A DNA stretch of 64,000 bases from Candidatus Daviesbacteria bacterium RIFCSPHIGHO2_12_FULL_37_16 (GTDB taxonomy: Bacteria; Patescibacteriota; Microgenomatia; Daviesbacterales; UBA10151): positions 103,097 through 167,096 of the forward strand of contig MFDF01000008.1 in the NCBI GenBank assembly GCA_001776785.1. The letters run 5' to 3'. Below are positions 8,238 to 38,908 of this stretch, piece after piece. Under the pieces are notes generated by a model, which did not search any database, had not been told where the DNA came from, and worked only from the letters and a program-made list of their open reading frames with translations. The position numbers were made by a program, and so were the translations under genes. How positions within the stretch are numbered: position 1 is the stretch's first letter; every line of letters begins with the position of its first letter.

Positions 8238-10769
8238 ATGATTAAAAAATCTGCTAGGCTACCAGCTCATATTAAACCAGAAAGATATGAAATTTTTCTA
8301 AAACCTGATTTAGAAGGTTTTACATTCACTGGTGAAGAAACAATGTGGCTGAGCTTGGATAAGCCATCAAAAGCAATTACCTTGCATGCTGCAGAACTTG
8401 AAGTTTTTTCTGAAGATGCAAATGTTTCATATGACCAGGCTGCAGAAACTGTTACCCTGACCTTTAAAAAACCTATATCTGGAAAACAGAAAATAAAGCT
8501 TAAGTTTACAGGTATATTAAATGATCAGATGAGAGGTTTTTACAGGTCAAAATATATCCATAATGGAGAAGAAAAATATTTAGCTACTACCCAGTTTGAA
8601 TCAACAGATGCCAGAAGGGCTTTTCCATGTATAGATGAACCATCTGCAAAAGCTGTCTTTGATGTAACTTTAATGGTCCCAAAAGAAAAAACAGTTATCT
8701 CAAATACCATAGAATCTGAAGTTTTAGAGCATGATGGGGGATATAAGTCAGTCAAATTTGAATCTACCCCCAGGATGTCTACCTATCTTTTGGCTTTTAT
8801 AGTTGGAGACTTTGAATACATTGAGAAAAAAACAAAAGGTGGGGTAATGGTCAGGGTTTTTGTAACTCCAGGTAAAAGTTTGCAAGCTAAATTTGCACTT
8901 GATGTGGCAGTAAAAACTCTGGATTTTTATGAAGATTATTTTGATATAAAATACCCACTTCCTGTTTCAGACCTGATAGCCATCCCTGACTTTGCAGCAG
9001 GTGCAATGGAAAACTGGGGAGCTGTAACTTATAGGGAATCTGCTATTTTAGTTGATCCAGAAAAATCCTCTACTGCAAATAAACAATGGGTAGCACTGGT
9101 CATTGCCCATGAGCTTGCCCATCAATGGTTTGGAAACTTAGTCACAATGGAGTGGTGGACTCATCTTTGGTTAAATGAGGGTTTTGCTTCCTTTATAGAA
9201 TATTTGGCAGTTGATAAAATTTTTCCTGAGTGGGATATCTGGACTCAATTTGTCTATTCAGACTTAGGGTCTGCCTTAAAACTTGATGCATTGGAAAATA
9301 CCCACCCAATAGAAGTAGAAGTAGTACACCCCTCTGAAATTGCAGAAATTTTTGACAGGGTTTCTTACTCAAAAGGAGCCTCAGTTTTAAGGATGCTTTA
9401 CAACTATTTGGGTGATAAAGACTTTAGGGATGGATTGAGGCACTATTTAAAAAAACATGCCTATTCAAATGCTTTAACAGAAGATCTCTGGCATTCTCTG
9501 GAAGAAGTTTCTGGTAAGCCTGTGACTAAAATAATGGGTAATTGGACAAGTAAACCAGGTTATCCACTAATCCAGGTTTTTGATTCAGGAAAAAATCTAA
9601 GATTAACTCAATCAAGATTTTATTCCAGCCCGCTCTCACGAAAATCCTCAGAAGATAAAACAGTCTGGACAACCCCAATATATTTTAAAAAATCAGGTTC
9701 AAAAAAAATTGGCCACATCTTAATCAATAAAAAAACTACAGAAATTGGTAAACCCAGTGGTTGGATTAAATTAAACTCAGGAGAAGTTAGTATCACCAGA
9801 ATTGATTACCCTTCGCAGCTTCTATTAAAACTGAAAGATCCAATATCTAAAAAAGAACTTGAAGCACCAGACAGGTTAGGGGTAATCAGAGATGCCTTTG
9901 ATCTATCCCAATCAGATCAGCTCCCCACCCATTTTGCTTTAGAACTAGCCCAGGGATATAAAAATGAAGATGATTTTACAGTTTGGGCGGAGATTACCTC
10001 GCAGCTTAATACCCTGGATAATTTAATAACTCATGAAAAGTTTTATGATAACTTCAGGCTTTATGGACAGGATCTGTATGATAGTATTGCCAAAAAAGTA
10101 GGCTGGTCAAAAAAATCTGGAGAACCTCATACAACATCACTTTTGAGAAGTTTAGTTTTATCAGCTTTAGGAGGTTTTGGCCACAGGGAAACTATCAAAA
10201 AAGCCTTTGACCTGTTTGAAGATTTAAAGATGGGGGAGAGTATGGATCCTGATTTAAGGGGGGTTGTTTTAAGATTAGTTGCAGAAAATGGTTCTAAAAA
10301 AGAACATGGAATTTTAAAAAAACTTTATGTAAAAGAGCCTTTGCAGGAAGAAAGAAACAGGTTAGCTAGAGCCCTGTCTATGTTTAAGCAGCCTGAACTT
10401 TTGAAAGATACTCTGGAATTTGCTCTCTCACAGCATGTCAGGTTCCAGGACTCTATTCATGTTATAGCTGGAGTTTGGTCAAATCCTTATGGCAGTGAAT
10501 TAGCCTGGATTTTTTTCAAAAAGAATTTTAAAAAGTTAAGAAAAATCTATGCTGGAGGCCACTTCATGTCAAGGCTTTTGGGTGCTGCAGGATCAATGGT
10601 TAAAGTCTCTCAGGCTAATGATTTGGAAAAGTTCTTCAAGAAAAACCCAGTCCCAGAAGCAACCAGGACCATAGCTCAAGCTTCTGAGCAGATCCGCTCA
10701 AACGCAGCTTGGTTAAAAAGAGACCGCAAAGGTATAGAAAAGTTTTTATCCAATACATTTTTATGTTAA
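8238..10769 (+). CDS. pepN: M1-family aminopeptidase N
   Basis: GAMEN motif (AAGAMENWG) and zinc-binding HELAHQWFGNLVTMEWWTHLWLNEGFA (HEXXH-18-E). The ORF opens at 8202; the Met at 8238 (MIKKSARLP) fits the family N-terminus better. Confidence 0.85.
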   Translation: MIKKSARLPAHIKPERYEIFLKPDLEGFTFTGEETMWLSLDKPSKAITLHAAELEVFSEDANVSYDQAAETVTLTFKKPISGKQKIKLKFTGILNDQMRGFYRSKYIHNGEEKYLATTQFESTDARRAFPCIDEPSAKAVFDVTLMVPKEKTVISNTIESEVLEHDGGYKSVKFESTPRMSTYLLAFIVGDFEYIEKKTKGGVMVRVFVTPGKSLQAKFALDVAVKTLDFYEDYFDIKYPLPVSDLIAIPDFAAGAMENWGAVTYRESAILVDPEKSSTANKQWVALVIAHELAHQWFGNLVTMEWWTHLWLNEGFASFIEYLAVDKIFPEWDIWTQFVYSDLGSALKLDALENTHPIEVEVVHPSEIAEIFDRVSYSKGASVLRMLYNYLGDKDFRDGLRHYLKKHAYSNALTEDLWHSLEEVSGKPVTKIMGNWTSKPGYPLIQVFDSGKNLRLTQSRFYSSPLSRKSSEDKTVWTTPIYFKKSGSKKIGHILINKKTTEIGKPSGWIKLNSGEVSITRIDYPSQLLLKLKDPISKKELEAPDRLGVIRDAFDLSQSDQLPTHFALELAQGYKNEDDFTVWAEITSQLNTLDNLITHEKFYDNFRLYGQDLYDSIAKKVGWSKKSGEPHTTSLLRSLVLSALGGFGHRETIKKAFDLFEDLKMGESMDPDLRGVVLRLVAENGSKKEHGILKKLYVKEPLQEERNRLARALSMFKQPELLKDTLEFALSQHVRFQDSIHVIAGVWSNPYGSELAWIFFKKNFKKLRKIYAGGHFMSRLLGAAGSMVKVSQANDLEKFFKKNPVPEATRTIAQASEQIRSNAAWLKRDRKGIEKFLSNTFLC

Positions 10770-27784: not shown

Positions 27785-28212
27785 GGAAGTGGAGAAGTCT
27801 GCCACAGGGTAAAAAAAGGATTCGAATAATTCCCGAAACTATAGGACATATCGTGAAAAGAAAGTGATATAGTGTGATATAGTTACAGCGTTAACAATAG
27901 CAAACTATAGGGTCTACTGACCCTGCGAGAACTTCACATACTCCAAAGATCGTTGTCTTGGAGTGCTTCGTTCTCTAAAGTCTAGAGGGAGTGGACTACA
28001 CTTTCTAAGGACCTACTTGTGGATAACTTTAGCAGTTCTTACATAAGATTGTTAACCGTATTTTCATGCGTGAAAAATAAAGCGACATCATTTAGCAGAG
28101 GAGTATGGATATTAAATTATCATAAGCATGAGTGTAGAGGCATACTTTTGCTTCCTGCATCCCTGTCCCTACTAGTATTTACCTCTACTTTATTGACAAC
28201 AAGACTGCCCAT

Positions 28213-28233
28213 ATCCACTATGTCGCACAATGT
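28213..28233. repeat. direct repeat copy 1 (ATCCAyyTTGTCGCACAATrT-like)
   Basis: The GC-containing 11-mer TGTCGCACAAT (28221-28231) recurs at 28702-28712; flanks extend the match to about 17/21. Confidence 0.5.
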
Positions 28234-28693
28234 AGCTTATACGACATTCAGGATGCGTCTTTGCCGGAGGAGTGGTTAAACCCAATATAAAATATTAAAG
28301 ATAAAAAATCAAAAATATTTAAGCGTGGTTATTTGTGCCCGTTTTTTGTCATTTTTACTTTTTAATTTTTACTTTTTAATTTTTCCCATTACTAAAATAA
28401 CAATGTTGGGTTTGGACTGCTATATAGACCTAATCTTAAGATTACCAATTGCACCTCTCCCCTCTGCAAAAGCCGTTTTAGGGGACTTTTTGCGCCTTGT
28501 GCAAAAAGGCACCGGTATGAGTTAAATTTATTTGATCAACTAGAAAGTTGAATTCTTTCTTTTCCAAATAAACCACATCTTCTTGCCAAACTAATAGATC
28601 AGTAAATGTTTGTATTTTTCCATCTTTCATATTCTTTAATCATAAATCTTTAATCTTAAATCCACTATATGAATTATCAACCTTTTATGAACT

Positions 28694-28714
28694 ATCCATC
28701 TTGTCGCACAATAT
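28694..28714. repeat. direct repeat copy 2, 60 bp upstream of the giant-gene start
   Basis: See copy 1. Spacing is 481 bp. Confidence 0.5.
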
Positions 28715-28773
28715 TAAGTTTATTTCCGAGCTCCTCGTTGACTATTTACTAATAATATCTGAAGATATATTTA

Positions 28774-31700
28774 ATGGACTCAGTTCGGGAACTTCTGCAC
28801 AATAAAAAAACCCTCATTACCCTGCTCCTAGTTGGAATCCTGATTTTGGCAATACCTCTGGGGATAAGTCTTGTAAAATACCAGCAAAGGTTGTCCTCCC
28901 AGGCAGCAGTACCTGGTATAGAAGTGACCGAGGGAGATTGTGTTAAGTTAAAAAATGGAGTTAAAGTCTTAACCTGCGGCTTTGTTCCATTAAAGCTTAA
29001 TTTCCCGGCCACCCCAACCCCAACTCCTTCCCCAACCCCTACCCCAACGAGTTCCCCTACTCCCACCAGTTCAATTACGCCATCTCCTACTGGTACAACA
29101 GCATCCGTAAACCTGACCATAAATAACCAGGATGGTCCTATACATGTTGATAGTGGTGCTACTTTGGTTCTGAAGTGGGTAACTAATCAAGTCAGAGCTT
29201 GCTCAGCCTCTGAAGCATGGTCTGGAAGTAAAAATGATGATGGTGCATCAGAGACAATATCAAATATTCTTAGCCCTAAAACATTTGTACTGACATGCGA
29301 ACAAAGGGGTAATCCTGATAACAAAATTTCTGACTCCATAACTGTTGTAGTAGGTAATGGGAATTCGAACCTTAGACAAACTGATCCTGCTAAATTTGAA
29401 GCCGATTTAAAAACCATTAGAGATCTAGGAGGGGGTGTTTTGTACATTCCAGCTGGTAGTTATACTTTGCCTAAAGGCTTTACCATATACTCAAATACAA
29501 CCCTTATGGGAGATGGTAAAGGACAGACCAAATTAAAGTTGCCTTCTGGAGTTGATTCAAAAGTAATCTCTTCCTCTGGTGAGGGGAATAACTCAAATAT
29601 AGTGATTAGGGACTTATCAATTGAAGGTCCAGGTGTAAGTGGTCCCAAAGATGACTGTTGCTATGGAATTAGACTTAGAAATATTAAAAACTCTTATTTA
29701 ATTAATGTTGAGGTGTCCGGTTTTAGTCAAGATGGAATTTATTTAGGTCAAGTTAGTAACAAAGGAGTAGATAGTACAAGAATTACAGGGTGTAGTGTTT
29801 TTGGAAATGGTCGTAACGGTATATCAATAGTTCATGGTCAAGGAAATGTTATAGATGGTTGCAGTATAAATGAAAATGGGTCGAGAGAAGCAGTCTCGGC
29901 TATAGACTTAGAACCCGATGGGGGGTTAAATGTTTCCAATAATGTCATAATGAATAATTCGATTGGAGGAAATGCAGGTAATGGTATTGGTCTAGGCGAT
30001 AATCCAAATGATCCAGGAGGGATTGTGTCAAACAATGGGGTTTGTGGAAATACCTTTTCTGGTAACGGTTTTGCAGAGATTGCTCAGAGTAACGATCAAG
30101 GTACATATACTTCTGGTTGTTCAATTCCTTCTGGTCTGTCAAATCTCCCTGCAGCTCCCTCAAGGCCCTCTGCCAATTCTGGCAGTAGTTTATTTGCAAA
30201 ACTTAAAAACCTTATTCCCACTGTATATGCCCATAATATCCCCCCTCAAATAAGTGGTGTTGACTGTTCCAAACCAAGTGTCTTTGTATCATGGGTAATT
30301 GACCCAAATGACAATCACGATATGGATATATTCCGCGATGGGGTCAAAGTAGGTGAAGCAAATGGATTTTTTGAGGACACTACTGTTACCAGAGGTAGAT
30401 TTTATGCATATTCTATTGGTCATGGAGCAAGTGGAACTAATACCAGTGTATGGGCTGATGTAACCTGTGCCACTACCCCACCACCAACCCAACCTCCCAC
30501 AACACCCCCAACTGCCTCACCTACCCAACCTCCCACCCCACCACCTACCTCTCCTCCAACCTCGCCTCCAACTACACCTCCTGGAGGTCCACAGTGCTCT
30601 GATGATATAAACAATGACTTTGATGGCCTGATTGACATAGAAGACCCACAGTGCCATACGGATGGTGATGCAGATAACCCGGAAACCTATGATCCAACTA
30701 TTAAGTTTGAATCCAGACAGTACAGGCTGGCTGAATCAGAATCTGAACTTCAATTCACCCTTTGGAGTGACTACAGAGAAGATCCCCTTCTTACAGAATT
30801 TGGTCTAACAGATGATTCACCAGGGATCAAGCAAATTTGGGTTGAGTTTAAAGAAACTGATGGTAAAACTACAAAAGACAAAGTTACTATTGAACTTGTG
30901 GAACCGGATCCGGTTATTAAAAGCGCCAGGTGTGATTTTGATTCTATAAACAAACAAAACCTCAAGGTTACCATAAAAGGAGAAAGATTCGGAACAAAAG
31001 AAAGCTCTGTTTTTATGGGTTTAGATCTGTCTGAGGAAGATCTTGACCCAAAGAAAAAACCCTTCTCAGGTGCAGAAGTTTTGGAATGGAATGATAAAGA
31101 AATTACACTTCTTATAAGAAGCTTTAAGACATTTTTATTAGAAAGTGTAAGGCTTAAGATGTCTGTTTTTCGCTCAGACCAATCATTCTCAAACATTGCC
31201 TCCTGTGACATTGGTGCATCAATGATTTCACTGGGAGCCCGGGTTTTCTGCAGGGAGCCTGGAAAATTTGACACAGAAAATGTTAAAGTAACTGTCTTTG
31301 ATAAAGACTCAAAGACTGGCAAAATAAACAAGGCTGAAGAAACTGTAAAGATTGACAAAGATGGAGTTATTACTGGATTAAAAACCATTCTGCAGACTGG
31401 CAAAAATTATGCATTATCGATCAAAGCTCCAAACTCGCTCAGAAGGAATGCCACCTTTGTGGCTGAAGAAGGAACAACTATTGTCACAAGACCAAATGAT
31501 CAGGACTTTATCCTGCCCATTGGAGATATTGCCCCAACCCAAAGCCCTGATGGAAAAATTAACACAGTTGATAAAGCAGAATTAACAAGACAGTGGAGAA
31601 TTTTTGGGGAAAATATAAAAGCTCAGACTGGTGACTTTAACAGGGACACCAAAGTTAACTCCTTTGACTGGGCCTGCATGAGGTATGACTTTAATGCAGA

Positions 31701-32292
31701 AGATGACCCCATACCTACAGATATAGAGCAAATTGCACCAATTTCCCAAAACAATTCTTCCGACGCATCAACTCCTGTTAAGCTGGCTAGTACAGGCGGA
31801 GGATCCTCCTCTATTCAACAAACTCCTGTACCTTTATCAGAAGCTTATTTTTCTTTTATCCCTTTTAAAAGCACAGTAAAAAAAAATTGTGATCACGCTG
31901 TAAATATTTATTTAGATACAGGAGGGAAATTTATTGATGGCGTTGATGTAATTATAAAATTTAATCCAAATGTAATAGCAGATACTACCTTTTTTGACGG
32001 CGTGCTTCCATTTGATAAGTATGAGGTAAATGATGATAATACTAGAGACTTTATAACTATTTCAGCCCCTACTCCAACAAATAAACCATTTAGAGGATCT
32101 GGAATATTTGGCCGAATTGTCTTTAAGGTAAAGCCAAACCCTCCTGTCTCTACTTTAGATTTAAGTTTTGATTTTGATCCCAATGATAAAGGCAAAACTA
32201 CTGATTCAAATATTGTTGAAGATAAGACTCTCAAAGATATCCTTAGCTATGTAGTCAATGGAAATTACCAGATTACATCAGGATCCTGCTAA
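28774..32292 (+). CDS. giant surface protein 1 with the following domains: N-terminal signal anchor; Pro/Thr linkers; right-handed beta-helix (pectate-lyase fold); FN3-like module; one thrombospondin-type-3-like calcium-binding repeat; conserved C-terminal module with a dockerin-like duplicated segment; C-terminal cohesin-like domain
   Basis: 1172-aa ORF. Beta-helix repeats: NVEVSGFSQDGIYLG / CSVFGNGRNGISIVHGQGNVIDGCSINENG. TSP3-like CSDDINNDFDGLIDIEDPQCHTDGDADNPETYDP. Dockerin-like GDIAP...DGKINTVDKAELTRQWRIFG...GDFNRDTKVNSFDWACMRYDF. Cohesin-like AVNIYLDTGG...IIKFNPNVIA...GIFGRIVFKVKPN...FDFDPNDKG. Confidence 0.75.
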   Translation: MDSVRELLHNKKTLITLLLVGILILAIPLGISLVKYQQRLSSQAAVPGIEVTEGDCVKLKNGVKVLTCGFVPLKLNFPATPTPTPSPTPTPTSSPTPTSSITPSPTGTTASVNLTINNQDGPIHVDSGATLVLKWVTNQVRACSASEAWSGSKNDDGASETISNILSPKTFVLTCEQRGNPDNKISDSITVVVGNGNSNLRQTDPAKFEADLKTIRDLGGGVLYIPAGSYTLPKGFTIYSNTTLMGDGKGQTKLKLPSGVDSKVISSSGEGNNSNIVIRDLSIEGPGVSGPKDDCCYGIRLRNIKNSYLINVEVSGFSQDGIYLGQVSNKGVDSTRITGCSVFGNGRNGISIVHGQGNVIDGCSINENGSREAVSAIDLEPDGGLNVSNNVIMNNSIGGNAGNGIGLGDNPNDPGGIVSNNGVCGNTFSGNGFAEIAQSNDQGTYTSGCSIPSGLSNLPAAPSRPSANSGSSLFAKLKNLIPTVYAHNIPPQISGVDCSKPSVFVSWVIDPNDNHDMDIFRDGVKVGEANGFFEDTTVTRGRFYAYSIGHGASGTNTSVWADVTCATTPPPTQPPTTPPTASPTQPPTPPPTSPPTSPPTTPPGGPQCSDDINNDFDGLIDIEDPQCHTDGDADNPETYDPTIKFESRQYRLAESESELQFTLWSDYREDPLLTEFGLTDDSPGIKQIWVEFKETDGKTTKDKVTIELVEPDPVIKSARCDFDSINKQNLKVTIKGERFGTKESSVFMGLDLSEEDLDPKKKPFSGAEVLEWNDKEITLLIRSFKTFLLESVRLKMSVFRSDQSFSNIASCDIGASMISLGARVFCREPGKFDTENVKVTVFDKDSKTGKINKAEETVKIDKDGVITGLKTILQTGKNYALSIKAPNSLRRNATFVAEEGTTIVTRPNDQDFILPIGDIAPTQSPDGKINTVDKAELTRQWRIFGENIKAQTGDFNRDTKVNSFDWACMRYDFNAEDDPIPTDIEQIAPISQNNSSDASTPVKLASTGGGSSSIQQTPVPLSEAYFSFIPFKSTVKKNCDHAVNIYLDTGGKFIDGVDVIIKFNPNVIADTTFFDGVLPFDKYEVNDDNTRDFITISAPTPTNKPFRGSGIFGRIVFKVKPNPPVSTLDLSFDFDPNDKGKTTDSNIVEDKTLKDILSYVVNGNYQITSGSC
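29008..29090 (+). repeat. Pro/Thr/Ser-rich low-complexity linker coding repeat (PTPTPSPTPTPTSSPTPTSS)
   Basis: ccaaccccaactcc... periodic CCn-ACn codons. A second linker lies at 30472-30590. Confidence 0.7.
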
Positions 32293-32377
32293 AATCCATC
32301 ATCCTAAACGTTTGTATTTTTTCTATAGCTGACTGGTTGACTTTAGTAAAATCTTCCTTCACTATTATATTAAGACA

Positions 32378-35300
32378 TTGCAGGAATACTTAGAAATTTT
32401 TAAAGGTAAAAAAGTTATAACCAGTTTAGTGGTTCTCCTTTTTTTGGTCATAAGTATCCCACTAGCTTTAAATCTTTTTAATTCAAGGCTTAAACTGTTT
32501 TCCAGGGCAGCTTTAGGAGACCCAATTGAACTTTTAGCAGGAAGGTGTGTTGTTTCTGTTGAAGGTAAAAAGATTAACTGCGAAGAGATACCTTTGAAAT
32601 TACTCTCCCCTCTTGGACCTCCCATTCAAAAACCTCCAGCACCTCAAAACCTGGTTGTAGAATCCTCAAGCTGTGAGATCAACTCTCCAGTCATTAAACT
32701 AAAGTGGGACCATGTTAGTGGAGTTTCGGGCTACAGTGTGATTAGGCGGTGGGGAGATAATGACGGGATTGAAGTCTTTGATTTGGACCCTAATTCCAAT
32801 ACCTTTAATGATTCCCCGGCGTCTGACGGTATTGTCTCAGGTACTGAGGTAAAATATCAGGTTTTAGCAGGCAGTGATATTCAGTCAGACCCATCAAATG
32901 AGGTGACTACCCAAGTCGCACTCTGTGGGGTCCCATCCCCACCCCCCACCGCCTGCAATCCCAGGCCAAATGTTATCAGAAACCTCCAGCTTCTCTCAGC
33001 TGACAGGTACAAAGTTACTGCAACAGTGGGAACAAATACCAGTACCCCTACAAATAGTTTTACCAAAGTTAAATTTAACAGCTTAAGTAATGGAAAAATA
33101 GAAATTGGTGGTACTCCTGGTAGGGCTGCTCCATTTGAATATGGACTCAATGGAGCCCAATCTTATTCATTTGAAGTAAAACTGGATAGGCCCTGCCAGG
33201 AATCAACAACGATTTTTGAACATTTTGATGCCTGTGGAAGCTTTCCTGATTTTCAGGGATCTGGAGCTGGCCCTACTGGTTTTGGCCAATTCCCTCAGTG
33301 TCAAACAAGTACACCTGCCCCAACCCCAACAGCAGTCCCTTTACCAACTCCCCTTCCAGGTGTGACATCCTCAACAGTAACCTCAACTGGAGACTTCAGG
33401 CTTATAGGTTCTGGACAATGCACTGGAGGCTCTCCAACTATAGATCTTGTTTGGGATAGGACAGACGGGGGGCCATATACAATAGAAAAAACTCCTGTCC
33501 CAATCCCGGGCCAGCTTGCAGGTCAGCTAACATTGAGGCCAATATTATCAACCTTTGGAAATTATATTGCACTAAACACGACCTACAGTATCTATATTCA
33601 GTCAGTAAATGGTCCTAAATCAGACACTATCTCTATTGCCTCTCCAGCAACCTGTTCTGGAGCATCACTAATTTTTAAAAATAACTTTTCTTTAACAAGC
33701 ATTTTAAATATTCTTAAACCATTTATTGAAAACACCAAAAATATATTTGGTTCACCTGCGTATGCTATTGATCCAGGTGATACAGGTCCTGGTGACCTGC
33801 AGTTAGGTGTTAGCGGCCGCTGTGACTCATCTTTCAGACCGTACGTAAGTGTTGACTGGAATACTAATGGATATTATTACCATATTTTAAGAAACGGCTC
33901 TGAAATAGCCTGGACACCTGCTGCGATGAGTGATTATGGTGTGCAGTCTGGACAAACTTATACTTACCAACTGATTAAAACAGGAATTGATGAACCTGCT
34001 TCCCCAACACAATCTACATCAGTTCCAACCTGTGTAGCTCCAACTCAGGTTCCAACTCAAGCTCCAACACAAGCTCCAACTCAGGCACCAACTCAAGCTC
34101 CAACTCAGGTTCCAACTCAGCTACCCACTCAGGCTCCTACAACTGTTCCTACTTCAACACCAACTGCATATTACCTCTATCCCCCAACTACTCAGACTGT
34201 TGCTACTTCAAACTGCACTGATATAAGAACAACTAAGGTTTCCTGGGATAGTGTGACTGATTCAGGAGGAAATCATAATTACACTAAAACTTTCACTAAA
34301 GCTGCGCTTGACCAAACCTATCCTCAATGGATAATAGGTGCAGGTCTTGATGGAAATAAGGACTTTCCTGCAACAGTTACTATTGCAGGTCAGTCATACA
34401 CTATTCAGCCTGGTGTCTGGAGTTCACATGATGATACCTATCTTGAGTTTTATTACACAGGTGCATTTAGAAAAATACATGGGATAACTGCAGATAATTT
34501 TACTGTTGCAGGATCAGGAACAATTGCAGTGCCAGCAACAATTACTGTGACTGGAAGCAGTCTAAGTTCATATAACAGTACCCCTGTTCCTCCCAATACA
34601 GGTGTAGATATTAAATATTGTGCTGCAGCTGCTCCTACTCCACAGTGCTCCGATTCGTTGGATAATGATTCAGATGGCAAAATTGACTCTGCCGATCCAG
34701 GTTGTCACACAGATGGTAATCCAAATAATCAAGGTTCATATGATCCAAATGACAATGATGAAAGCAATATTACTGAATGTAATGACACAATAGATAATGA
34801 TGGGGATGGTAAAATAGATTCTGCTGACCCACAGTGCCATACAGATGGTAATGCTGACAATCCATCCTCATACGACCCCAATATCCCTTCTGAAGGCGAA
34901 CCACCCCCAGGCAACTTTACAGTCAAATACAGGCTTGCAGAAACAGAAGAAGGTCTAAGCAGTGCAGAATTCAAGCCATATACTCAGGAGCCTATAATAA
35001 CATCCTTTATACTGCAAAACATAGGTCCTGGGCCAAAGCAGGTTTGGGTAGAATTCGTGGACTCAAATGGAGGTTCAAGAGTTGAGAATATAAACCTTAC
35101 CTGGGTTGAACCTGACCCCACAACTGATGCTGTTTCATGCACATTTGATATTTCCAAAGAAAATGTCAAAGTAGTGATTAAAGGAACCGGATTTACAGCA
35201 ACGCCAGGCAGGATCAGTGTTGATGGTAAAGATGCAGAAATTCTGGAATGGAAAACTGATTTGATAACTGCCTTAGTGAGAAAACCAAGCCTGCCAGCCG

Positions 35301-35917
35301 GTGGATCTAAAAGGTTTGCAATTCAGGTTCTCAGGGCAGACGGCAAGGTTATTACTACTGCCCCCTGTGAAATTGATAGGTCATTAATCTATCTTGGCGC
35401 CCGGGTCTTCTGTAGGGAGGAAGGTAAATTTGATGTAGAAAAAGTCCAAATAAGAGTCGTTGATGATGTAAAAAACAAAGTTGATGAAACTGTCTCAATT
35501 GACAAAGATGGTGTAGTCAAAGGGCTTAAAACTTCAATCCAGGCAGGCAGAAGGTATGGCCTCTCTATAAAAGCTCCAAAATCTGTCAGAAGAAATGTTT
35601 TCTTCACTGCTCAGGAAGGCACAACTATAGTTTCCAATCCAGACGGCAGCCAATTTATCCTTCCGGTTGGTGATATTGCCCCTGCAATTCAGGCTGATGG
35701 TAAGATAAACACACTTGATAGGGCTGAACTAACCAGGCAATGGAGAATCTTTGGTACTCCAAAAGAGCCCCAATCTGGAGACTTAAAGATAGATACCAAA
35801 GTTAACTCTTTTGACTGGGCTTGTCAGAGGTATGACTTTAACGCTCAAGATGATCCTATTTTGAATGAAGTTGAGGCTACACAATCTGCAAGTATTATGA
35901 GTAATAACTTGCAATGA
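32378..35917 (+). CDS. giant surface protein 2 (paralog) with the following domains: N-terminal signal anchor; FN3-like modules; (PTQA)n linker; two TSP3-like calcium-binding repeats; conserved C-terminal module with dockerin-like segment
   Basis: 1179-aa ORF. Its N-terminal module GRCVVSVEGKKINCEEIPLKL parallels giant 1 (GDCVKLKNGVKVLTCGFVPLKL). The C-terminal ~330 aa align closely with giant 1 (IYLGARVFCREEGKFD..., GDIAPAIQADGKINTLDRAELTRQWRIFG...DTKVNSFDWACQRYDF). Confidence 0.75.
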   Translation: MQEYLEIFKGKKVITSLVVLLFLVISIPLALNLFNSRLKLFSRAALGDPIELLAGRCVVSVEGKKINCEEIPLKLLSPLGPPIQKPPAPQNLVVESSSCEINSPVIKLKWDHVSGVSGYSVIRRWGDNDGIEVFDLDPNSNTFNDSPASDGIVSGTEVKYQVLAGSDIQSDPSNEVTTQVALCGVPSPPPTACNPRPNVIRNLQLLSADRYKVTATVGTNTSTPTNSFTKVKFNSLSNGKIEIGGTPGRAAPFEYGLNGAQSYSFEVKLDRPCQESTTIFEHFDACGSFPDFQGSGAGPTGFGQFPQCQTSTPAPTPTAVPLPTPLPGVTSSTVTSTGDFRLIGSGQCTGGSPTIDLVWDRTDGGPYTIEKTPVPIPGQLAGQLTLRPILSTFGNYIALNTTYSIYIQSVNGPKSDTISIASPATCSGASLIFKNNFSLTSILNILKPFIENTKNIFGSPAYAIDPGDTGPGDLQLGVSGRCDSSFRPYVSVDWNTNGYYYHILRNGSEIAWTPAAMSDYGVQSGQTYTYQLIKTGIDEPASPTQSTSVPTCVAPTQVPTQAPTQAPTQAPTQAPTQVPTQLPTQAPTTVPTSTPTAYYLYPPTTQTVATSNCTDIRTTKVSWDSVTDSGGNHNYTKTFTKAALDQTYPQWIIGAGLDGNKDFPATVTIAGQSYTIQPGVWSSHDDTYLEFYYTGAFRKIHGITADNFTVAGSGTIAVPATITVTGSSLSSYNSTPVPPNTGVDIKYCAAAAPTPQCSDSLDNDSDGKIDSADPGCHTDGNPNNQGSYDPNDNDESNITECNDTIDNDGDGKIDSADPQCHTDGNADNPSSYDPNIPSEGEPPPGNFTVKYRLAETEEGLSSAEFKPYTQEPIITSFILQNIGPGPKQVWVEFVDSNGGSRVENINLTWVEPDPTTDAVSCTFDISKENVKVVIKGTGFTATPGRISVDGKDAEILEWKTDLITALVRKPSLPAGGSKRFAIQVLRADGKVITTAPCEIDRSLIYLGARVFCREEGKFDVEKVQIRVVDDVKNKVDETVSIDKDGVVKGLKTSIQAGRRYGLSIKAPKSVRRNVFFTAQEGTTIVSNPDGSQFILPVGDIAPAIQADGKINTLDRAELTRQWRIFGTPKEPQSGDLKIDTKVNSFDWACQRYDFNAQDDPILNEVEATQSASIMSNNLQ
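34038..34140 (+). repeat. about 8 tandem copies of a 12-bp unit (caagctccaact) encoding (PTQA/V)n
   Basis: The linker sequence ...VAPTQVPTQAPTQAPTQAPTQAPTQVPTQLPTQAPTTVPT...; the nucleotide units are near-identical. Confidence 0.8.
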
Positions 35918-35957
35918 ATAAGGAGAATAATTTAATCTAGAGAAAGTAGGGATAAAA

Positions 35958-36773
35958 ATGGAAGTATCTGCCAAACCATTAATATATGTAACTAAAGATT
36001 CTGAGATAAAACTTGAACCTAAAAGCCTGCTTAAACGCAGCTTCCTGAAGATTCTTTTCATAATTTTGGGTGTCATTATTATCGGTGAACTTATTTGGGG
36101 AGTCCGTTCAATAATCTCCTCGCAAAACGCACTTATTCCGTCTGTTTCTGAACTTTCTGAAGGGTCTATAATAGTTGATTCCCCAAAAGTTAATTATCAG
36201 GTTGGTGAAGCAGTCCCTATAACTATCAGGGTGGCCACAGGAGGAAAATTAACTGATGCTGCAGATCTAATCCTAAAATATGACCCCAGTGTTTTAAGCC
36301 TTGTAAGCTCTGATATAAAAATAGGCCAAATCTACAAAGATTACCCGGTTGCAGATAATGACCAGTCCTTTGGAGAAGTTAAAGTCTCAGGAATTACCCC
36401 TCCTGGTGAAACAGGTTTTGGTGGAATTGGTGAACTAGCCAGTCTTCAGTTTAAAGCCCTATCATCTGGCAAAACAGTAGTTTCTGTAGATTTTCAAAAA
36501 GATTCAACAATAGATTCAAATATTGTAGAAGCAAATACCACTCATGACATGCTGGGGGTAGTTTATAATAAAGAACTTTTTATTGGTTCTTCACAGTCAA
36601 CCGCGGTTGAAAAAGATAACAAAAACCAGTGCCAGGGCTACATTCAGCTTTGTCAGACATCTGAAAACCAAACAGGAAGGCAGTTCTGCCAACAGGGAAG
36701 GATACAAGGCAACCAGTGTAAATTTGATCCAAATCTGACAATCAGCTGTGATGAATGCAGGGTTTCACAATAA
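35958..36773 (+). CDS. cohesin-like domain protein, N-terminally membrane-anchored, with C-terminal Cys-rich module
   Basis: TM LKILFIILGVIIIGELIWGV. Cohesin-like VPITIRVATGG...LILKYDPSVLSL...GELASLQFKALSSGKTVVSVDF. The C-terminus has 7 Cys (CQGYIQLCQTSENQTGRQFCQQGRIQGNQCKFDPNLTISCDEC). Confidence 0.6.
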   Translation: MEVSAKPLIYVTKDSEIKLEPKSLLKRSFLKILFIILGVIIIGELIWGVRSIISSQNALIPSVSELSEGSIIVDSPKVNYQVGEAVPITIRVATGGKLTDAADLILKYDPSVLSLVSSDIKIGQIYKDYPVADNDQSFGEVKVSGITPPGETGFGGIGELASLQFKALSSGKTVVSVDFQKDSTIDSNIVEANTTHDMLGVVYNKELFIGSSQSTAVEKDNKNQCQGYIQLCQTSENQTGRQFCQQGRIQGNQCKFDPNLTISCDECRVSQ

Positions 36774-36822
36774 ATTTTTAGCTGACCTTGACTTTAAACC
36801 TTATTGTGCACACAATAGATAT

Positions 36823-37548
36823 ATGGGTAGATTAAAATACATTTTAATGTCCTTCCTGGCCTTAGTAATATTCTCAAGCCCGGCATTGGCCCAGGCTGCA
36901 ACCCTTTCATTAAATCCTTCCGCAGGTACATTTAATAGGGGTTGTGTTTTAGGGGTCAATATTGAGCTTGATACTCAGGGCGGCCAAACTGATGGTACAG
37001 ATGTGATCCTAATTTTTGATCCCACAAAGCTTTCAGTTAAAACCTCTGATATTACAAATGGCAAAATTTATCAGGACTACCCTGGCAACTCTGTAGATGC
37101 CCAATCCGGCAAACTTTCTATATCGGGTATCTCCTCAGTTTCAGAACCCTTTACAGGCAAAGGCACTTTTGCCACAGTCCAATTTCATGTTTTGGAAAAT
37201 GCCCCAACTGGTGCAACTTTAATCAGGTTTGATTTTGATCCCAATGATAAAACCAAAACTACAGACACCAATGTAGTTGAAAGAGGCACAATAGCTGACC
37301 TGTTAAGTAGTGTAACTGATGGAAATTATACTGTTGGTACTGGTTCTTGTGTAAGCCAGGGTCAGGGCGCTGCTGGCACTACCATTGGGGGGCAGGGTCA
37401 GGTTGGTACAGTTTCTGCTACTCCCCTGCCTACTAAAGTTCCTTTAAAAGAGTTACCACAGGGAGGGATATTTGATAATACAATAATTATTGCAGCAATT
37501 GGTACAGTTTTAACTATTATTGGCATTGCAGGCCTGGCAATGCTGTAA
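36823..37548 (+). CDS. cohesin-like domain protein with cleavable signal peptide, Gly/Thr linker and C-terminal LPQGG + TM anchor
   Basis: Signal peptide MGRLKYILMSFLALVIFSSPALAQA. Cohesin-like GVNIELDTQGG...ILIFDPTKLSV...GTFATVQFHVLENAPTGATLIRFDFDPNDKTKTTDTNVVE. C-terminal KELPQGGIFDNTIIIAAIGTVLTIIGIAGLAML. The ORF track opens at 36748; I prefer the Met at 36823, which avoids overlap with the upstream gene. Confidence 0.6.
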   Translation: MGRLKYILMSFLALVIFSSPALAQAATLSLNPSAGTFNRGCVLGVNIELDTQGGQTDGTDVILIFDPTKLSVKTSDITNGKIYQDYPGNSVDAQSGKLSISGISSVSEPFTGKGTFATVQFHVLENAPTGATLIRFDFDPNDKTKTTDTNVVERGTIADLLSSVTDGNYTVGTGSCVSQGQGAAGTTIGGQGQVGTVSATPLPTKVPLKELPQGGIFDNTIIIAAIGTVLTIIGIAGLAML

Positions 37549-37572
37549 TTTTCTCACATCACACTTCTCAAT

Positions 37573-38499
37573 ATGACAAAATCCATCCCCTCCCTAATTA
37601 CTGACTTCTTAGAATATTTGGAGCTTGAACGCAACTCATCCCAGCGCACTATTAGAAATTACGACCATTACTTAAAAAGGTTTGCTGACTTTGCAGGGGA
37701 AATTACCCCAAAAGATATAAATCTGGAAGTTATAAGAAAATACAGGCTTCATCTTGCTAGATATACAGACCCTAAAACTAAAGCTCCCTTAAAAAGAAAA
37801 ACCCAAAACTTTTTTATGATTGCCTTAAGGGCATTTCTAAGGTATCTTACCAGGTTAGATATTCAAACCCTTTCTGCAGAAAAAGTTGAGCTTGGTGAGC
37901 AAGACCCCTCCCCACTTAAAGTTTTAGATGAAGAAAGCCTGCAAAGGCTTTTAGATGCTCCTGACACCTCTTCAAAAGAAGGGATCAGGGATAAAACTAT
38001 TTTAGAAATGCTTTTCTCAACAGGTCTGAGAGTCTCAGAGCTTGCCTCACTAAACAGGGAGCAGGTTAACTTAGACAGAAAGGAGTTTGGGGTTGTGGGC
38101 AAGGGTGGTAAGGAAAGAGTTGTCTTTTTATCAGATACAGCCTGTCAGTGGATAGAAAGGTACTTAATGATAAGAAAGGACAGTTTTAAGCCTCTTTTTA
38201 TCCGCTACCAGGGGCGTGTTGCCCCGGAAGATAATGGTGAGTATATGAGGCTTTCAACCCGCTCAATAGAAAGGATAGTAGAAAAATATGTTAAAGCTTG
38301 TGGACTCTCAGTTAAAGCTACTCCCCACACCCTGCGTCATAACTTTGCAACTGATCTTTTAATAAACGGAGCGGATATAAGAAGTGTTCAGGAAATGCTT
38401 GGTCATTCGAATATTTCAACAACCCAAATCTACACCCATGTCACCAACAAGCACTTAAAAGATGTTCACAAAGCCTTTCATTCTAAAAATAAGGAATAA
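37573..38499 (+). CDS. tyrosine recombinase, XerC/XerD-type
   Basis: N-terminal SAM-like core-binding domain (LEYLELERNSSQRTIRNY). Catalytic R...HTLRHNFATDLLINGADIRSVQEMLGHSNISTTQIYTHV with the terminal Tyr. Confidence 0.8.
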   Translation: MTKSIPSLITDFLEYLELERNSSQRTIRNYDHYLKRFADFAGEITPKDINLEVIRKYRLHLARYTDPKTKAPLKRKTQNFFMIALRAFLRYLTRLDIQTLSAEKVELGEQDPSPLKVLDEESLQRLLDAPDTSSKEGIRDKTILEMLFSTGLRVSELASLNREQVNLDRKEFGVVGKGGKERVVFLSDTACQWIERYLMIRKDSFKPLFIRYQGRVAPEDNGEYMRLSTRSIERIVEKYVKACGLSVKATPHTLRHNFATDLLINGADIRSVQEMLGHSNISTTQIYTHVTNKHLKDVHKAFHSKNKE

Positions 38500-38557: not shown

Positions 38558-38908
38558 CTACTTCTTAGCTACATCTTTAGCTAGCATAGAAAGTACTGTT
38601 GAAACAACAGATAAAACAATAGCTGCAAGAATTGCTGGTAATACCCCCTCAATTGTTAACCCTGGTACTATTGCTGCTGCTAACCATAAAATTACTGCAT
38701 TTATAACAAAGGTAAAAAGTCCCAAAGTTAAAATATTTAAAGGCAGGGTTAAAAGTAAAAGTATAGGTTTGATAAAAGTATTTATTACTCCTAAAATAAT
38801 TGCTGCTAAAATAGCTGTTGCAAAACTATCTACTCTAAATCCTGGTACAATATAGGCTGTGATAATTAGCGCTGCTGCATTAAGTAAAAGTGCTATTAAT
38901 AAATTCAT
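38558..38908 (-). CDS. DUF360 / phage-holin-4_2 family membrane protein (YvlD-like)
   Basis: LNAAALIITAYIVPGFRVDSFATAILAAIILGVINTFIKPIL...LTLGLFTFVINAVILWLAAAIVPGLTIEG matches the family pattern. The plus-strand ORF 38517..38855 is antisense noise. Confidence 0.5.
   Translation of the reverse strand: MNLLIALLLNAAALIITAYIVPGFRVDSFATAILAAIILGVINTFIKPILLLLTLPLNILTLGLFTFVINAVILWLAAAIVPGLTIEGVLPAILAAIVLSVVSTVLSMLAKDVAKK

What the first reader, a model, noticed from the sequence alone, without database searches (positions are those of the whole stretch)
31521..32292. Giant protein 1 carries both a dockerin-like and a cohesin-like module on the same polypeptide
Giant 1 differs from its paralog only by a roughly 190-aa C-terminal extension, whose last about 135 aa form the cohesin-like domain after a Ser/Thr/Gly linker (ASTGGGSSSIQQTPVP). 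A protein with both partner modules could homo-oligomerise or chain head-to-tail. It could also act as an adaptor scaffoldin that docks onto the membrane cohesins and recruits the dockerin of giant 2. The second giant lacks the cohesin. This gives a built-in hierarchy of anchor cohesins, adaptor and cargo.
Basis: partly seen in the sequence, partly recalled or inferred. Interest (0 to 1): 0.7.

Follow-up and report, generated by a model that had tools for sequence, protein, structure and literature searches.

The report
Surface protein carrying both dockerin and cohesin
A large secreted protein of an uncultured Daviesbacteria-type (CPR) bacterium really does carry both halves of the cohesin-dockerin "plug and socket" pair. 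This layout is already known from gut and cellulose-degrading bacteria and recurs in this protein's own relatives, so it is a sound but fairly ordinary find.

Summary
Partly confirmed. Giant 1 (G1, 28774-32292) has a dockerin (aa 912-979), a disordered ~35-aa linker, and a C-terminal cohesin (aa 1014-1172).

- **Dockerin:** the segment alone scores 27.2 bits against Pfam Dockerin_1. A family profile hits solved dockerins at E 7e-9.
- **Cohesin:** no direct Pfam hit, but 39% identical to the neighbouring membrane cohesin. The AlphaFold model has pLDDT 88, and its top 48 PDB matches are all cohesins.
- **Wrong claim:** the two giants do not differ only by this extension. They share only the N-terminal ~90 aa and a C-terminal ~390-aa module.

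The four genes form an operon, giant(s) then CohA then CohB, seen in about 45 of 55 related loci, all named ones Daviesbacteria/Patescibacteria.

Dockerin plus cohesin on one chain recurs in this family: 13 of 68 homologues carry a tail cohesin. In the closest relatives a different cohesin subtype sits on the other giant.

The most likely role is a third docking site that stacks giant 2, or another G1, onto membrane-anchored G1. Ruminococcus bromii Amy4 and adaptor scaffoldins work this way.

A strict anchor-adaptor-cargo hierarchy is not supported, because the two dockerins are nearly identical at the canonical recognition positions. Binding is untested. This is a new member of a known kind.

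The parts
28774..32292 (+). G1, 1172 aa. Order of parts: N-terminal hydrophobic signal/anchor, Pro/Thr linker, Ig-like region, right-handed beta-helix head, Fn3-like region, acidic double-disulfide repeat, shared C-terminal module with dockerin, linker, cohesin.
   Evidence: ORF list; Pfam; NCBIfam; hydropathy. Sequence identical in Logan and ENA assemblies.
28804..28884 (+). G1 aa 11-37: the single N-terminal hydrophobic segment, either a signal peptide or a signal anchor. A possible cleavage site lies near SSQAA.
   Evidence: Kyte-Doolittle scan. The N-terminal ~80 aa are conserved at 33-52% identity across the family. Cleavage is inferred, not tested.
29431..30105 (+). G1 aa 220-444: right-handed parallel beta-helix head, pectate-lyase-like. 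This is the variable 'cargo' part of G1.
   Evidence: Pfam Beta_helix 27.9 bits (cut-off 25.9); Pect-lyase_RHGA_epim 25.0 bits. Homologous heads occur in giant #1 of L001, L002, L004-L006.
30721..31728 (+). G1 aa 650-985: C-terminal module shared with G2 (50% identity) and with about 68 homologues. It is a set of beta-rich domains ending in the dockerin, with four conserved Cys.
   Evidence: BLASTP; alignment A2 with invariant columns; module HMM E 7e-125.
31507..31710 (+). G1 dockerin, aa 912-979. Loop 1 is GDIAPTQSPDGKINTVD, non-canonical with a 4-residue insertion. Loop 2 is DFNRDTKVNSFD, canonical. Each loop is followed by a helix, and an invariant Cys lies at 968.
   Evidence: Pfam Dockerin_1: 22.3 bits in the full protein, 26.7-27.2 bits on the segment. 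Family profile A3 hits solved dockerins: 4fl4_A at 6.6e-9, CelS 2mte at 6e-8. All 36 of 36 family members match PF00404. AF2 places helices at aa 931-942 and 963-971.
31711..31812 (+). G1 aa 980-1013: Ser/Thr/Gly/Pro-rich linker between dockerin and cohesin, predicted disordered.
   Evidence: AF2 pLDDT about 40 for aa 972-1015; composition read from the sequence.
31813..32292 (+). G1 C-terminal cohesin, aa 1014-1172 plus the stop codon. It is a type-B-like subtype without the membrane anchor, and ends at the conserved GxC.
   Evidence: 39% identity, E 5e-32, to CohB. Its 120 listed homologues are small proteins, 117 of them carrying PF00963. AF2 pLDDT 88.3, pTM 0.79, all-beta. The top 48 Foldseek PDB hits are all cohesins; best E 2e-9, target-normalised TM up to 0.81. 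Type-B HMM 136.8 bits, type-A 96.9, tail-type 5.9. There is no direct Pfam hit.
32378..35917 (+). G2, 1179 aa. Same N-terminal leader and same C-terminal module with dockerin, but an unrelated central part with two acidic double-disulfide repeats. No cohesin.
35651..35857 (+). G2 dockerin, aa 1092-1160. Loop 2 is DLKIDTKVNSFD, with Lys at ligand position 3.
   Evidence: Pfam Dockerin_1 23.0 bits; dockerin HMM E 7.6e-33; alignment A3.
35958..36773 (+). CohA, 271 aa. N-terminal transmembrane helix (aa 23-54), type-A cohesin, Cys-rich C-terminal tail.
   Evidence: Pfam Cohesin 30.5 bits; hydropathy; type-A HMM 204 bits. It holds a conserved position after the giants in about 45 loci.
36748..37548 (+). 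CohB, 266 aa from the GTG start. The likely true start is the ATG at 36823. It has a signal peptide, a type-B cohesin, a Gly/Thr linker, and an LPQGG motif followed by a C-terminal hydrophobic helix.
   Evidence: Pfam Cohesin 35.8 bits; hydropathy; type-B HMM 322.7 bits. It is the last gene of the conserved operon.

Best explanation
G1 belongs to a four-gene cohesin-dockerin surface-assembly operon of a Daviesbacteria-type (Patescibacteria/CPR) bacterium.

Proposed mechanism:
- The two giants are exported through their N-terminal hydrophobic leader.
- Their near-C-terminal dockerins plug into the extracellular cohesins of the two small membrane proteins. CohA is anchored at its N-terminus and CohB at its C-terminus. 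This holds the variable 'heads' (a beta-helix in G1) on the cell surface.
- The extra anchor-less cohesin at the end of G1 hangs on a ~35-aa flexible linker. It supplies a third socket, so a second dockerin-bearing giant can be stacked on an already docked G1. That second giant may be G2 or another G1.
- The two dockerins look equivalent, so the expected result is mixed stacking or short head-to-tail chains rather than a fixed adaptor-cargo order.

What is shown: module identities, predicted fold, membrane topology (predicted from hydropathy only), operon conservation, and recurrence of the architecture.

What is inferred: export, every cohesin-dockerin pairing, and stacking.
For: - Dockerin and cohesin identities.
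- Membrane anchoring of CohA and CohB, and a single N-terminal hydrophobic segment in each giant.
- The window holds exactly 2 dockerins and 3 cohesins, all in these four adjacent same-strand genes.
- The operon giant(s) then CohA then CohB is seen in about 45 of 55 related loci from species-representative genomes.
- Loci with two giants have three cohesins in 5 of 6 cases. Loci with one giant do so in 4 of 33 (Fisher p 0.0012, not corrected for phylogeny). The extra cohesin is either fused to a giant or a separate CohA-like gene (L022, L030).
- Dockerin followed by linker and tail cohesin recurs in 13 of 68 homologues. It also recurs with a type-B tail in P0198, P0277, P0214 and P0305.
- G1's tail keeps every invariant residue of the type-B family, including the FDFDPNDKxKTTDSN motif.
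- The G1 and G2 dockerins are the same at the canonical recognition positions: sequence.
- Experimental precedent: the Amy4 cohesin binds its own dockerin and those of other enzymes, and Amy4 also docks to anchored Sca2 (PMC4611034).
Against: - No binding data exist.
- G1's tail keeps only 35 of the 57 columns that are at least 90% conserved in membrane type-B cohesins. Other members keep 50-57. It sits on a long basal branch. Its specificity may therefore have changed, or constraint may be relaxed.
- It gives no direct Pfam Cohesin hit.
- In the closest relatives the tail cohesin is a different subtype on the other giant, so the wiring is not conserved in detail.
- Dockerin loop 1 is non-canonical, and G2's loop 2 has Lys at a Ca ligand position.
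- The family 'heads' look like adhesins or beta-helix proteins, not proven enzymes.
Confidence: 0.55

Rival explanations
1. Strict hierarchy. G1 is a dedicated adaptor. Its dockerin binds only the membrane cohesins, and its tail cohesin binds only G2's dockerin, giving anchor, then G1, then G2.
For: - One of the two giants carries a cohesin and the other does not.
- Two-giant loci usually have a third cohesin.
- In relatives L001-L006 the dockerins of giant #1 and giant #2 carry paralog-specific signatures that could encode different partners.
- Adaptor scaffoldins are a known design (PMC12484212).
Against: - In this genome the two dockerins share the canonical recognition residues: T-V/L, T-R, I in repeat 1 and S-F, R-Y, A in repeat 2.
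- They do not sort into the paralog-specific classes seen in relatives.
- In relatives the tail sits on the orthologue of G2.
- G1 is not a non-catalytic scaffold. It has its own large beta-helix head.
Confidence: 0.15
2. The tail cohesin has been repurposed or is decaying. It keeps the beta-sandwich fold but no longer binds this family's dockerin. It might bind another ligand such as a host-cell surface component, or act only as a spacer.
For: - Only 35 of 57 family-conserved columns are kept, against 50-57 in other members.
- The nearest non-self relative in 1.8 billion representatives is 42% identical.
- It sits on a basal long branch.
- There is no direct Pfam hit.
- Non-cellulosomal cohesin-like modules with other roles are known (my own knowledge: Peer et al. 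2009, cited in PMC6487960).
Against: - The fold is predicted with pLDDT above 90.
- All nine family-invariant residues are kept.
- The same dockerin-linker-cohesin layout has been fixed independently with two cohesin subtypes. That argues for selection on a dockerin-related role.
Confidence: 0.2
3. Intramolecular clasp. The cohesin folds back on the dockerin of the same chain, capping it until it is displaced by a membrane cohesin.
For: - A flexible linker of about 35-44 aa is long enough.
- Self-recognition of cohesin and dockerin on one chain is documented for Amy4 (PMC4611034).
Against: - AF2 on aa 905-1172 gave pTM 0.58, dockerin pLDDT 54-69 and linker pLDDT about 40. There was no confident fixed arrangement.
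- This is weak evidence, because no coordinates, PAE or Ca2+ were available.
Confidence: 0.08
4. Artefact. The fusion results from a mis-assembly or a frameshift that joins a separate small cohesin gene to G1.
For: None beyond the fact that the giant #1 orthologues lack a tail.
Against: - Identical sequence across the junction is found in a Logan assembly (8.9 kb, 0 mismatches) and an ENA contig.
- 21 contigs carry the identical G2.
- The linker is in frame and typical of intermodule linkers.
- The cohesin ends exactly at the conserved GxC module border, without anchor remnants.
Confidence: 0.02

Closest known systems
Ruminococcus bromii Amy4 (amylosome subunit with GH13, cohesin and dockerin)
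   Same: - A secreted protein with its own functional head plus both a cohesin and a dockerin on one chain.
- It coexists with a cell-anchored cohesin protein (Sca2) and with other dockerin-only proteins.
- It was shown to bind its own dockerin and those of other enzymes, and so can multimerise (PMC4611034).
   Different: - Amy4 runs head, cohesin, C-terminal dockerin. G1 runs head, dockerin, linker, C-terminal cohesin.
- Amy4's head is a proven amylase. G1's beta-helix head has no assigned activity.
- The Amy4 anchor is sortase-linked. Here the anchors are transmembrane helices.
- Different phylum: Firmicutes versus Patescibacteria.
- No binding data exist for G1.
Adaptor scaffoldins of complex cellulosomes (A. 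cellulolyticus ScaB; R. flavefaciens ScaA, ScaC, ScaH)
   Same: A cohesin or cohesins and a dockerin on one polypeptide, linking an anchored cohesin to further dockerin-bearing subunits (PMC12484212).
   Different: - Adaptors are non-catalytic, usually have several cohesins, and switch specificity between their cohesin and their dockerin.
- G1 has one cohesin and a large head, and there is no evidence for a specificity switch.
Non-cellulosomal cohesin/dockerin proteins, e.g. Archaeoglobus fulgidus
   Same: - Cohesin and dockerin modules in organisms without a cellulosome, including on the same protein.
- The solved A. fulgidus cohesin 2xdh is among the structural matches (rank 13).
- References: Bayer 1999 and Voronov-Goldman 2011, as cited in PMC4611034.
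   Different: - Archaeal, and a different genomic context.
- No conserved operon with two membrane cohesins has been described. That statement rests on my own knowledge and the reference lists; Peer et al. 2009 could not be read here.
Tail-cohesin giants of other Daviesbacteria (e.g. P0132, P0142, L001-L006 giant #2)
   Same: The same shared module, dockerin, Pro/Ser/Thr linker and ~130-150-aa C-terminal cohesin, in the same operon with CohA and CohB.
   Different: - Their tail cohesin is a separate subtype, closer to type A (hhalign 97.9% against 93.4%).
- It sits on the orthologue of G2.
- G1's tail is type-B-like and does not match their HMM (5.9 bits).

Membership tests
Cohesin module (Pfam PF00963; cellulosomal type I-like) | A beta-sandwich of about 140-150 aa with jelly-roll topology that superposes on solved cohesins | tested here: met
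   AF2 pLDDT 88.3, pTM 0.79, all-beta. The top 48 Foldseek PDB hits are all cohesins, best 6kgf_C at E 2.2e-9, with target-normalised TM 0.76-0.81 for type I cohesins. This is a prediction, not a solved structure.
Cohesin module (Pfam PF00963; cellulosomal type I-like) | Sequence match to the family model at the curated threshold | tested here: inconclusive
   G1's tail alone gives no Pfam hit at E up to 10. It is 39% identical (E 5e-32) to CohB, which scores 35.8 bits against a cut-off of 24.1. Of its 120 listed homologues, 117 carry PF00963. The family profile hits a solved ScaB cohesin only at E 0.0015.
Cohesin module (Pfam PF00963; cellulosomal type I-like) | Binds a dockerin with high affinity | not testable with these tools
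   No multimer prediction or experiment was available. The single-chain AF2 proxy was uninformative.
Dockerin type I (Pfam PF00404) | Sequence match to the family model at the curated threshold | tested here: met
   G1 full length scores 22.3 bits, just under the 22.9 cut-off. The isolated segment scores 26.7-27.2 bits. G2 scores 23.0 bits. All 36 of 36 family dockerins match, best E 2.5e-11. Profile A3 hits solved dockerins at 6.6e-9 to 1e-5.
Dockerin type I (Pfam PF00404) | Two ~22-residue repeats, each an EF-hand-like 12-residue Ca2+ loop (D-x-N/D-x-D-G-x-x-N/D-x-x-D) followed by a helix | tested here: inconclusive
   Repeat 2 is canonical (DFNRDTKVNSFD). Repeat 1 keeps positions 5, 6, 9 and 12 but has a family-wide 4-residue insertion, GDIAPxxxxDGxINxxD. 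Helices are predicted after each loop, but at pLDDT 54-69.
Dockerin type I (Pfam PF00404) | Ca2+-dependent folding and cohesin binding | not testable with these tools
   Needs an experiment.
Adaptor scaffoldin | Cohesin(s) and a dockerin on the same polypeptide | tested here: met
Adaptor scaffoldin | Its own dockerin and its cohesin have different specificities, so that it bridges two tiers | tested here: inconclusive
   The G1 and G2 dockerins are the same at canonical recognition positions and do not sort into the paralog-specific classes seen in relatives. This argues against a specificity switch, but only binding assays can decide.
Adaptor scaffoldin | A non-catalytic structural protein built mainly of cohesins and linkers | tested here: not met
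   About 85% of G1 is not cohesin. It has a beta-helix head and other domains. It is closer to the Amy4 type, a functional subunit that also carries a cohesin.
Cellulosome / amylosome (polysaccharide-degrading multi-enzyme complex) | The dockerin-bearing subunits are carbohydrate-active enzymes | tested here: inconclusive
   G1's head is a pectate-lyase-like beta-helix only at fold-family level: 25-28 bits, and the best solved-structure match is a capsule depolymerase at E 0.03. Heads elsewhere in the family are VWA, LamG, SdrD_B and TIG domains, which suggests adhesins rather than enzymes.

The most novel reading that the evidence does not exclude
The operon giant(s) then CohA then CohB may be a lineage-wide, CPR-specific surface apparatus of Daviesbacteria. 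In it, cohesin-dockerin pairs stand in for sortase or S-layer anchoring. Giants that carry both modules, such as G1, could polymerise head-to-tail into a non-covalent fibre or brush of adhesin or lyase heads, used to attach to or attack a host cell. The window's lineage would have rewired this apparatus by moving the socket from giant 2 to giant 1, using a different cohesin subtype.
Probability: 0.15. Interest if true: 0.65.

Novelty: new member of a known kind. Interest (0 to 1): 0.35.

Why it matters
Cohesin-dockerin assembly is best known from cellulosomes. Proteins carrying both modules are the elements that decide how such complexes grow, either in tiers or in self-associating chains.

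This locus shows that an ultra-small, probably host-dependent CPR lineage keeps a compact, well-conserved version. It has one or two large dockerin-bearing surface proteins and two membrane cohesins. A third cohesin is added almost every time a second giant is present.

If the pairings were measured, the system would be a minimal natural model for how surface proteins are displayed in bacteria that lack most envelope machinery. It would also be a source of new orthogonal cohesin-dockerin pairs.

The specific observation, one chain with both modules, is not surprising in itself.

Tried and rejected
- **Direct Pfam scan of the G1 tail:** no hit even at E 10. The cohesin call therefore rests on homologues and the predicted fold.
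- **AF2 of the natural dockerin-linker-cohesin fragment as a proxy for cis binding:** pTM 0.58 with a low-confidence dockerin. No coordinates or PAE are returned, so it says nothing firm.
- **Literature on CPR cohesin-dockerin systems:** only a passing metaproteomic mention for Cand. Shapirobacterales. Peer et al. 2009 is not held.
- **Idea that the G1 tail is a recent copy of the neighbouring CohB:** rejected. It is 39% identical, sits on a basal long branch, and keeps 35 of 57 conserved columns.
- **Idea that the G1 tail belongs to the usual tail-cohesin subtype of this family:** rejected. It scores 5.9 bits against that HMM and 136.8 bits against type B.
- **Assembly artefact:** rejected.
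- **Idea that the two dockerins of this genome were homogenised by gene conversion:** not supported. Their 72% identity is within the 66-71% range seen inside related genomes.
- **Function of the beta-helix head from solved structures:** only a capsule depolymerase at E 0.03.
- **Rfam on the long upstream gap:** nothing.
- **NCBIfam for a sorting signal in CohB:** nothing.

Full report
**What is at the coordinates**

The finding (31521-32292) is the last 256 codons of a 1172-aa ORF, 28774-32292 on the + strand, called G1 here. Three same-strand genes follow it directly:
- a 1179-aa ORF, 32378-35917 (G2);
- a 271-aa ORF, 35958-36773 (CohA);
- a 266-aa ORF, 36748-37548 (CohB; the likely true start is the ATG at 36823).

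The flanking genes are housekeeping: YebC, RuvC and a DUF5656 protein upstream, and a XerC-type recombinase and a P-type ATPase downstream. Further out lie gyrA, gyrB, Lgt and an M1 peptidase. The window has 33-41% G+C.

**The dockerin**

Pfam Dockerin_1 hits G1 aa 926-969 at 22.3 bits in the full protein, just under the 22.9 cut-off. On the isolated segment it scores 26.7-27.2 bits. G2 aa 1106-1147 scores 23.0 bits.

I aligned 36 non-redundant dockerin segments from the family (A3).
- All 36 match PF00404, with a best E of 2.5e-11.
- The profile finds solved dockerins: 4fl4_A at 6.6e-9, the CelS dockerin at 6e-8, and about 20 more below 0.01.

Repeat 2 is canonical (DFNRDTKVNSFD). Repeat 1 keeps D-G-x-I-N-x-x-D but has a family-wide 4-residue insertion after GDI-x-P. 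An invariant Cys follows loop 2. This is a real dockerin with a non-canonical first loop.

**The cohesin**

The 178-aa extension beyond the end of G2 has no direct Pfam hit. The other evidence is consistent:
- It is 39% identical (E 5e-32) to CohB and 31% identical to CohA. Both of those pass the Pfam Cohesin threshold, at 35.8 and 30.5 bits.
- Its 120 listed database homologues are 205-272-aa proteins, and 117 of them carry PF00963. Where a source names them, they are cohesin domain-containing proteins of Candidatus Daviesbacteria.
- An AlphaFold2 model built on a 51-sequence alignment has mean pLDDT 88.3 and pTM 0.79 and is all-beta.
- Against the PDB, the top 48 Foldseek matches are all cohesin modules. 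The best is E 2.2e-9, and target-normalised TM reaches 0.81. The closest are type I cohesins.

G1 and G2 are not near-identical paralogs. BLASTP aligns only aa 1-90 (33%) and G1 607-994 with G2 800-1177 (50%). The middle parts are unrelated:
- G1 has a right-handed beta-helix (Beta_helix 27.9 bits);
- G2 has no recognised domain apart from two acidic double-disulfide repeats.

**Reality of the fusion**

- A Logan assembly (L056) is 100% identical to the window over 29378-38279.
- An ENA contig (L057) is identical over 31335-33225.
- Both span the dockerin-cohesin junction.
- 21 contigs carry the identical G2.

**Topology**

Each giant has a single N-terminal hydrophobic segment. CohA has an N-terminal transmembrane helix. 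CohB has a signal peptide and a C-terminal hydrophobic helix preceded by LPQGG. Within the window, only these four genes carry dockerin or cohesin modules: two dockerins and three cohesins.

**Family and context**

A search with G1 aa 607-1172 found 73 proteins. About 68 of them share the ~335-aa C-terminal module ending in the dockerin. Upstream of it they carry very different heads: beta-helix, VWA, LamG, SdrD_B, TIG.

A scan of species-representative genomes returned 55 loci. Every locus with an informative title is Daviesbacteria, Microgenomates or Patescibacteria. My ORF/HMM survey of those loci shows a conserved operon: one or two giants with the module, then a CohA-type gene, then a CohB-type gene. 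It appears in essentially every locus with enough downstream DNA.

**Recurrence of dockerin plus cohesin on one chain**

- 13 of 68 homologues have a 162-203-aa tail after the dockerin, made of a Pro/Ser/Thr linker and a ~130-aa domain.
- 9 of the 10 tails scanned hit Pfam Cohesin, at 17-29 bits.
- As a profile the tails align to the CohB-type family with 95.9% hhalign probability.
- They form a third cohesin subtype, closer to type A than to type B (97.9% against 93.4%).

G1's tail is not of that subtype. It scores 136.8 bits on a type-B HMM built without the window, 96.9 on type A, and 5.9 on the tail subtype.

An exhaustive HMMER search of 1.84 billion representatives found 661 relatives. 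The nearest that is not the same sequence is 42% identical. Among the hits are other chains with a dockerin followed by a type-B tail (P0198, P0277, P0214, P0305). There are also cohesin-cohesin-dockerin mini-scaffoldins.

**Swapped position**

In the five closest two-giant loci (L001, L002, L004-L006):
- giant #1 has the beta-helix head and no tail;
- giant #2 carries the tail cohesin.

By head homology, by module score and by gene order, G1 corresponds to giant #1 and G2 to giant #2. In the window's lineage the socket therefore sits on the other giant and is of another subtype.

G1's tail is strongly diverged. It keeps 35 of the 57 columns that are at least 90% conserved in membrane type-B cohesins, where other members keep 50-57. 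It branches basally with the other fused type-B tails in a rough NJ tree. It still keeps all nine invariant residues of the family.

**How it most likely works**

Shown: the modules, the predicted fold, the membrane anchors (predicted from hydropathy), the operon, and its recurrence.

Inferred: the giants are exported, their dockerins plug into the membrane cohesins, and G1's anchor-less cohesin is an extra socket on a flexible linker.

Support for the extra-socket reading comes from counts in loci with complete coverage:

| Locus type | Loci with three cohesins |
|---|---|
| Two giants | 5 of 6 |
| One giant | 4 of 33 |

Fisher's exact test gives p 0.0012, not corrected for phylogeny. In L022 and L030 the extra cohesin is a separate CohA-like gene rather than a fusion.

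The G1 and G2 dockerins are the same at the canonical recognition positions. Repeat 2 reads S, F, R, Y, A in both. Repeat 1 differs only V/L. This comes from the sequence and from the established type I dockerin recognition rules. I therefore expect no discrimination between them. The G1 cohesin could take G2 or another G1, as shown experimentally for R. bromii Amy4 (PMC4611034).

In the relatives, the dockerins of giant #1 and giant #2 do carry paralog-specific signatures. The window's pair does not sort into those classes.

AF2 on G1 aa 905-1172 gave:
- a confident cohesin;
- a low-confidence dockerin (pLDDT 54-69) with two helices in the expected places;
- a disordered linker;
- pTM 0.58.

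There is thus no confident cis docking. This is weak evidence, because neither coordinates nor PAE are returned.

**Comparison with what is known**

- Adaptor scaffoldins and anchoring through cohesins are textbook cellulosome biology (PMC12484212).
- Amy4 is the closest functional analogue (PMC4611034).
- Non-cellulosomal cohesin and dockerin modules, including both on one protein, have been catalogued before. This rests on my own knowledge of Peer et al. 2009 and Bayer 1999, which I saw only as citations in PMC6487960 and PMC4611034.
- For CPR bacteria I found only one passing report, of expressed cohesin and dockerin proteins in Cand. Shapirobacterales, read there as a cellulosome (10.1101/2021.08.21.457207). 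I found no description of the operon.

**Verdict**

It is a new member of a known kind, and its interest is modest. The conserved Daviesbacteria operon and the swapped socket are the more notable by-products.

Noticed in passing
window 28774-37548; loci L001-L055: A conserved Daviesbacteria operon: one or two giants ending in the shared module with dockerin, then a CohA-type cohesin anchored at its N-terminus, then a CohB-type cohesin anchored at its C-terminus. It is seen in about 45 of 55 species-representative loci. I found no description of it in the searchable literature.
   Followed up: partly
L001, L002, L004, L005, L006 compared with window G1/G2: In the closest relatives the tail cohesin is a different subtype and sits on giant #2. 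In the window it is type-B-like and sits on giant #1, while G2 ends right after its dockerin. The socket appears to have been lost from one giant and gained by the other.
   Followed up: partly
window 27785-28773: About 990 nt upstream of G1 contain no ORF longer than 86 aa and give no Rfam match. That is unusually long for this compact genome.
   Followed up: partly
window ~42000, with 37573-38499: Gene orientation flips from + to - near 42 kb, and GC skew flips from weakly positive to strongly negative. This looks like converging replichores, that is, a replication terminus. A XerC-type recombinase gene lies about 4 kb away.
   Followed up: no
window 38280-38343; L056 at position 8902: An otherwise 100% identical Logan assembly lacks 64 nt inside the Xer recombinase gene. 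There it gives a frameshifted 238-aa product instead of 308 aa. This could be a strain variant or an assembly collapse.
   Followed up: partly
window 37450-37545 (CohB C-terminus): CohB-type proteins end in LPxxG followed by a hydrophobic helix with no basic tail (ELPQGGIFDNTIIIAAIGTVLTIIGIAGLAML). This resembles a sortase signal but is not canonical. NCBIfam gives no sorting-signal hit.
   Followed up: partly
window 36630-36770 (CohA C-terminus): The window's CohA ends in a Cys-rich tail, with 7 Cys in the last 47 aa, of unknown role.
   Followed up: no
window 30592-30663 (G1) and ~34630-34860 (G2): Acidic double-disulfide repeats (NF033662; motif C-x-D-x-x-D-N-D-x-D-G-x-x-D-x-x-D-P-x-C-H) lie just before the shared module. 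G2 has two copies (60.5 bits). G1 has one weak copy.
   Followed up: partly
window 31527-31572 and the same segment across the family (alignments A2, A3): The first Ca2+ loop of this dockerin family has a conserved 4-residue insertion (GDIAPxxxxDG). An invariant Cys after loop 2 may pair with the invariant Cys of the FCRE motif in the preceding beta-domain, which would make an X-Doc-like clasp. G2 has Lys at ligand position 3 of loop 2.
   Followed up: partly
proteins P0200, P0209, P0211, P0229, P0243, P0256, P0280, P0290: The representative library holds small proteins with a tail-type cohesin, a type-B cohesin and a C-terminal dockerin. These are scaffoldin-like architectures using the same module families.
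   Followed up: no
L001, L004, L005, L007-L009 and others: Many genome records that carry this Daviesbacteria-type operon are titled 'uncultured Gammaproteobacteria bacterium' (binchicken MAGs). This is probably a placeholder or a mislabel.
   Followed up: no
window 28774-29040 and 32378-32640: The giants share a conserved N-terminal ~80 aa: a hydrophobic leader plus a two-Cys hairpin (CVKLKNGVKVLTC). It is 33-52% identical across the family, which is more than a plain signal peptide would need.
   Followed up: no
window 38558-38908 (-): A small membrane protein is annotated in L056 as Phage_holin_4_2 (PF04020). It lies just downstream of the Xer gene.
   Followed up: no
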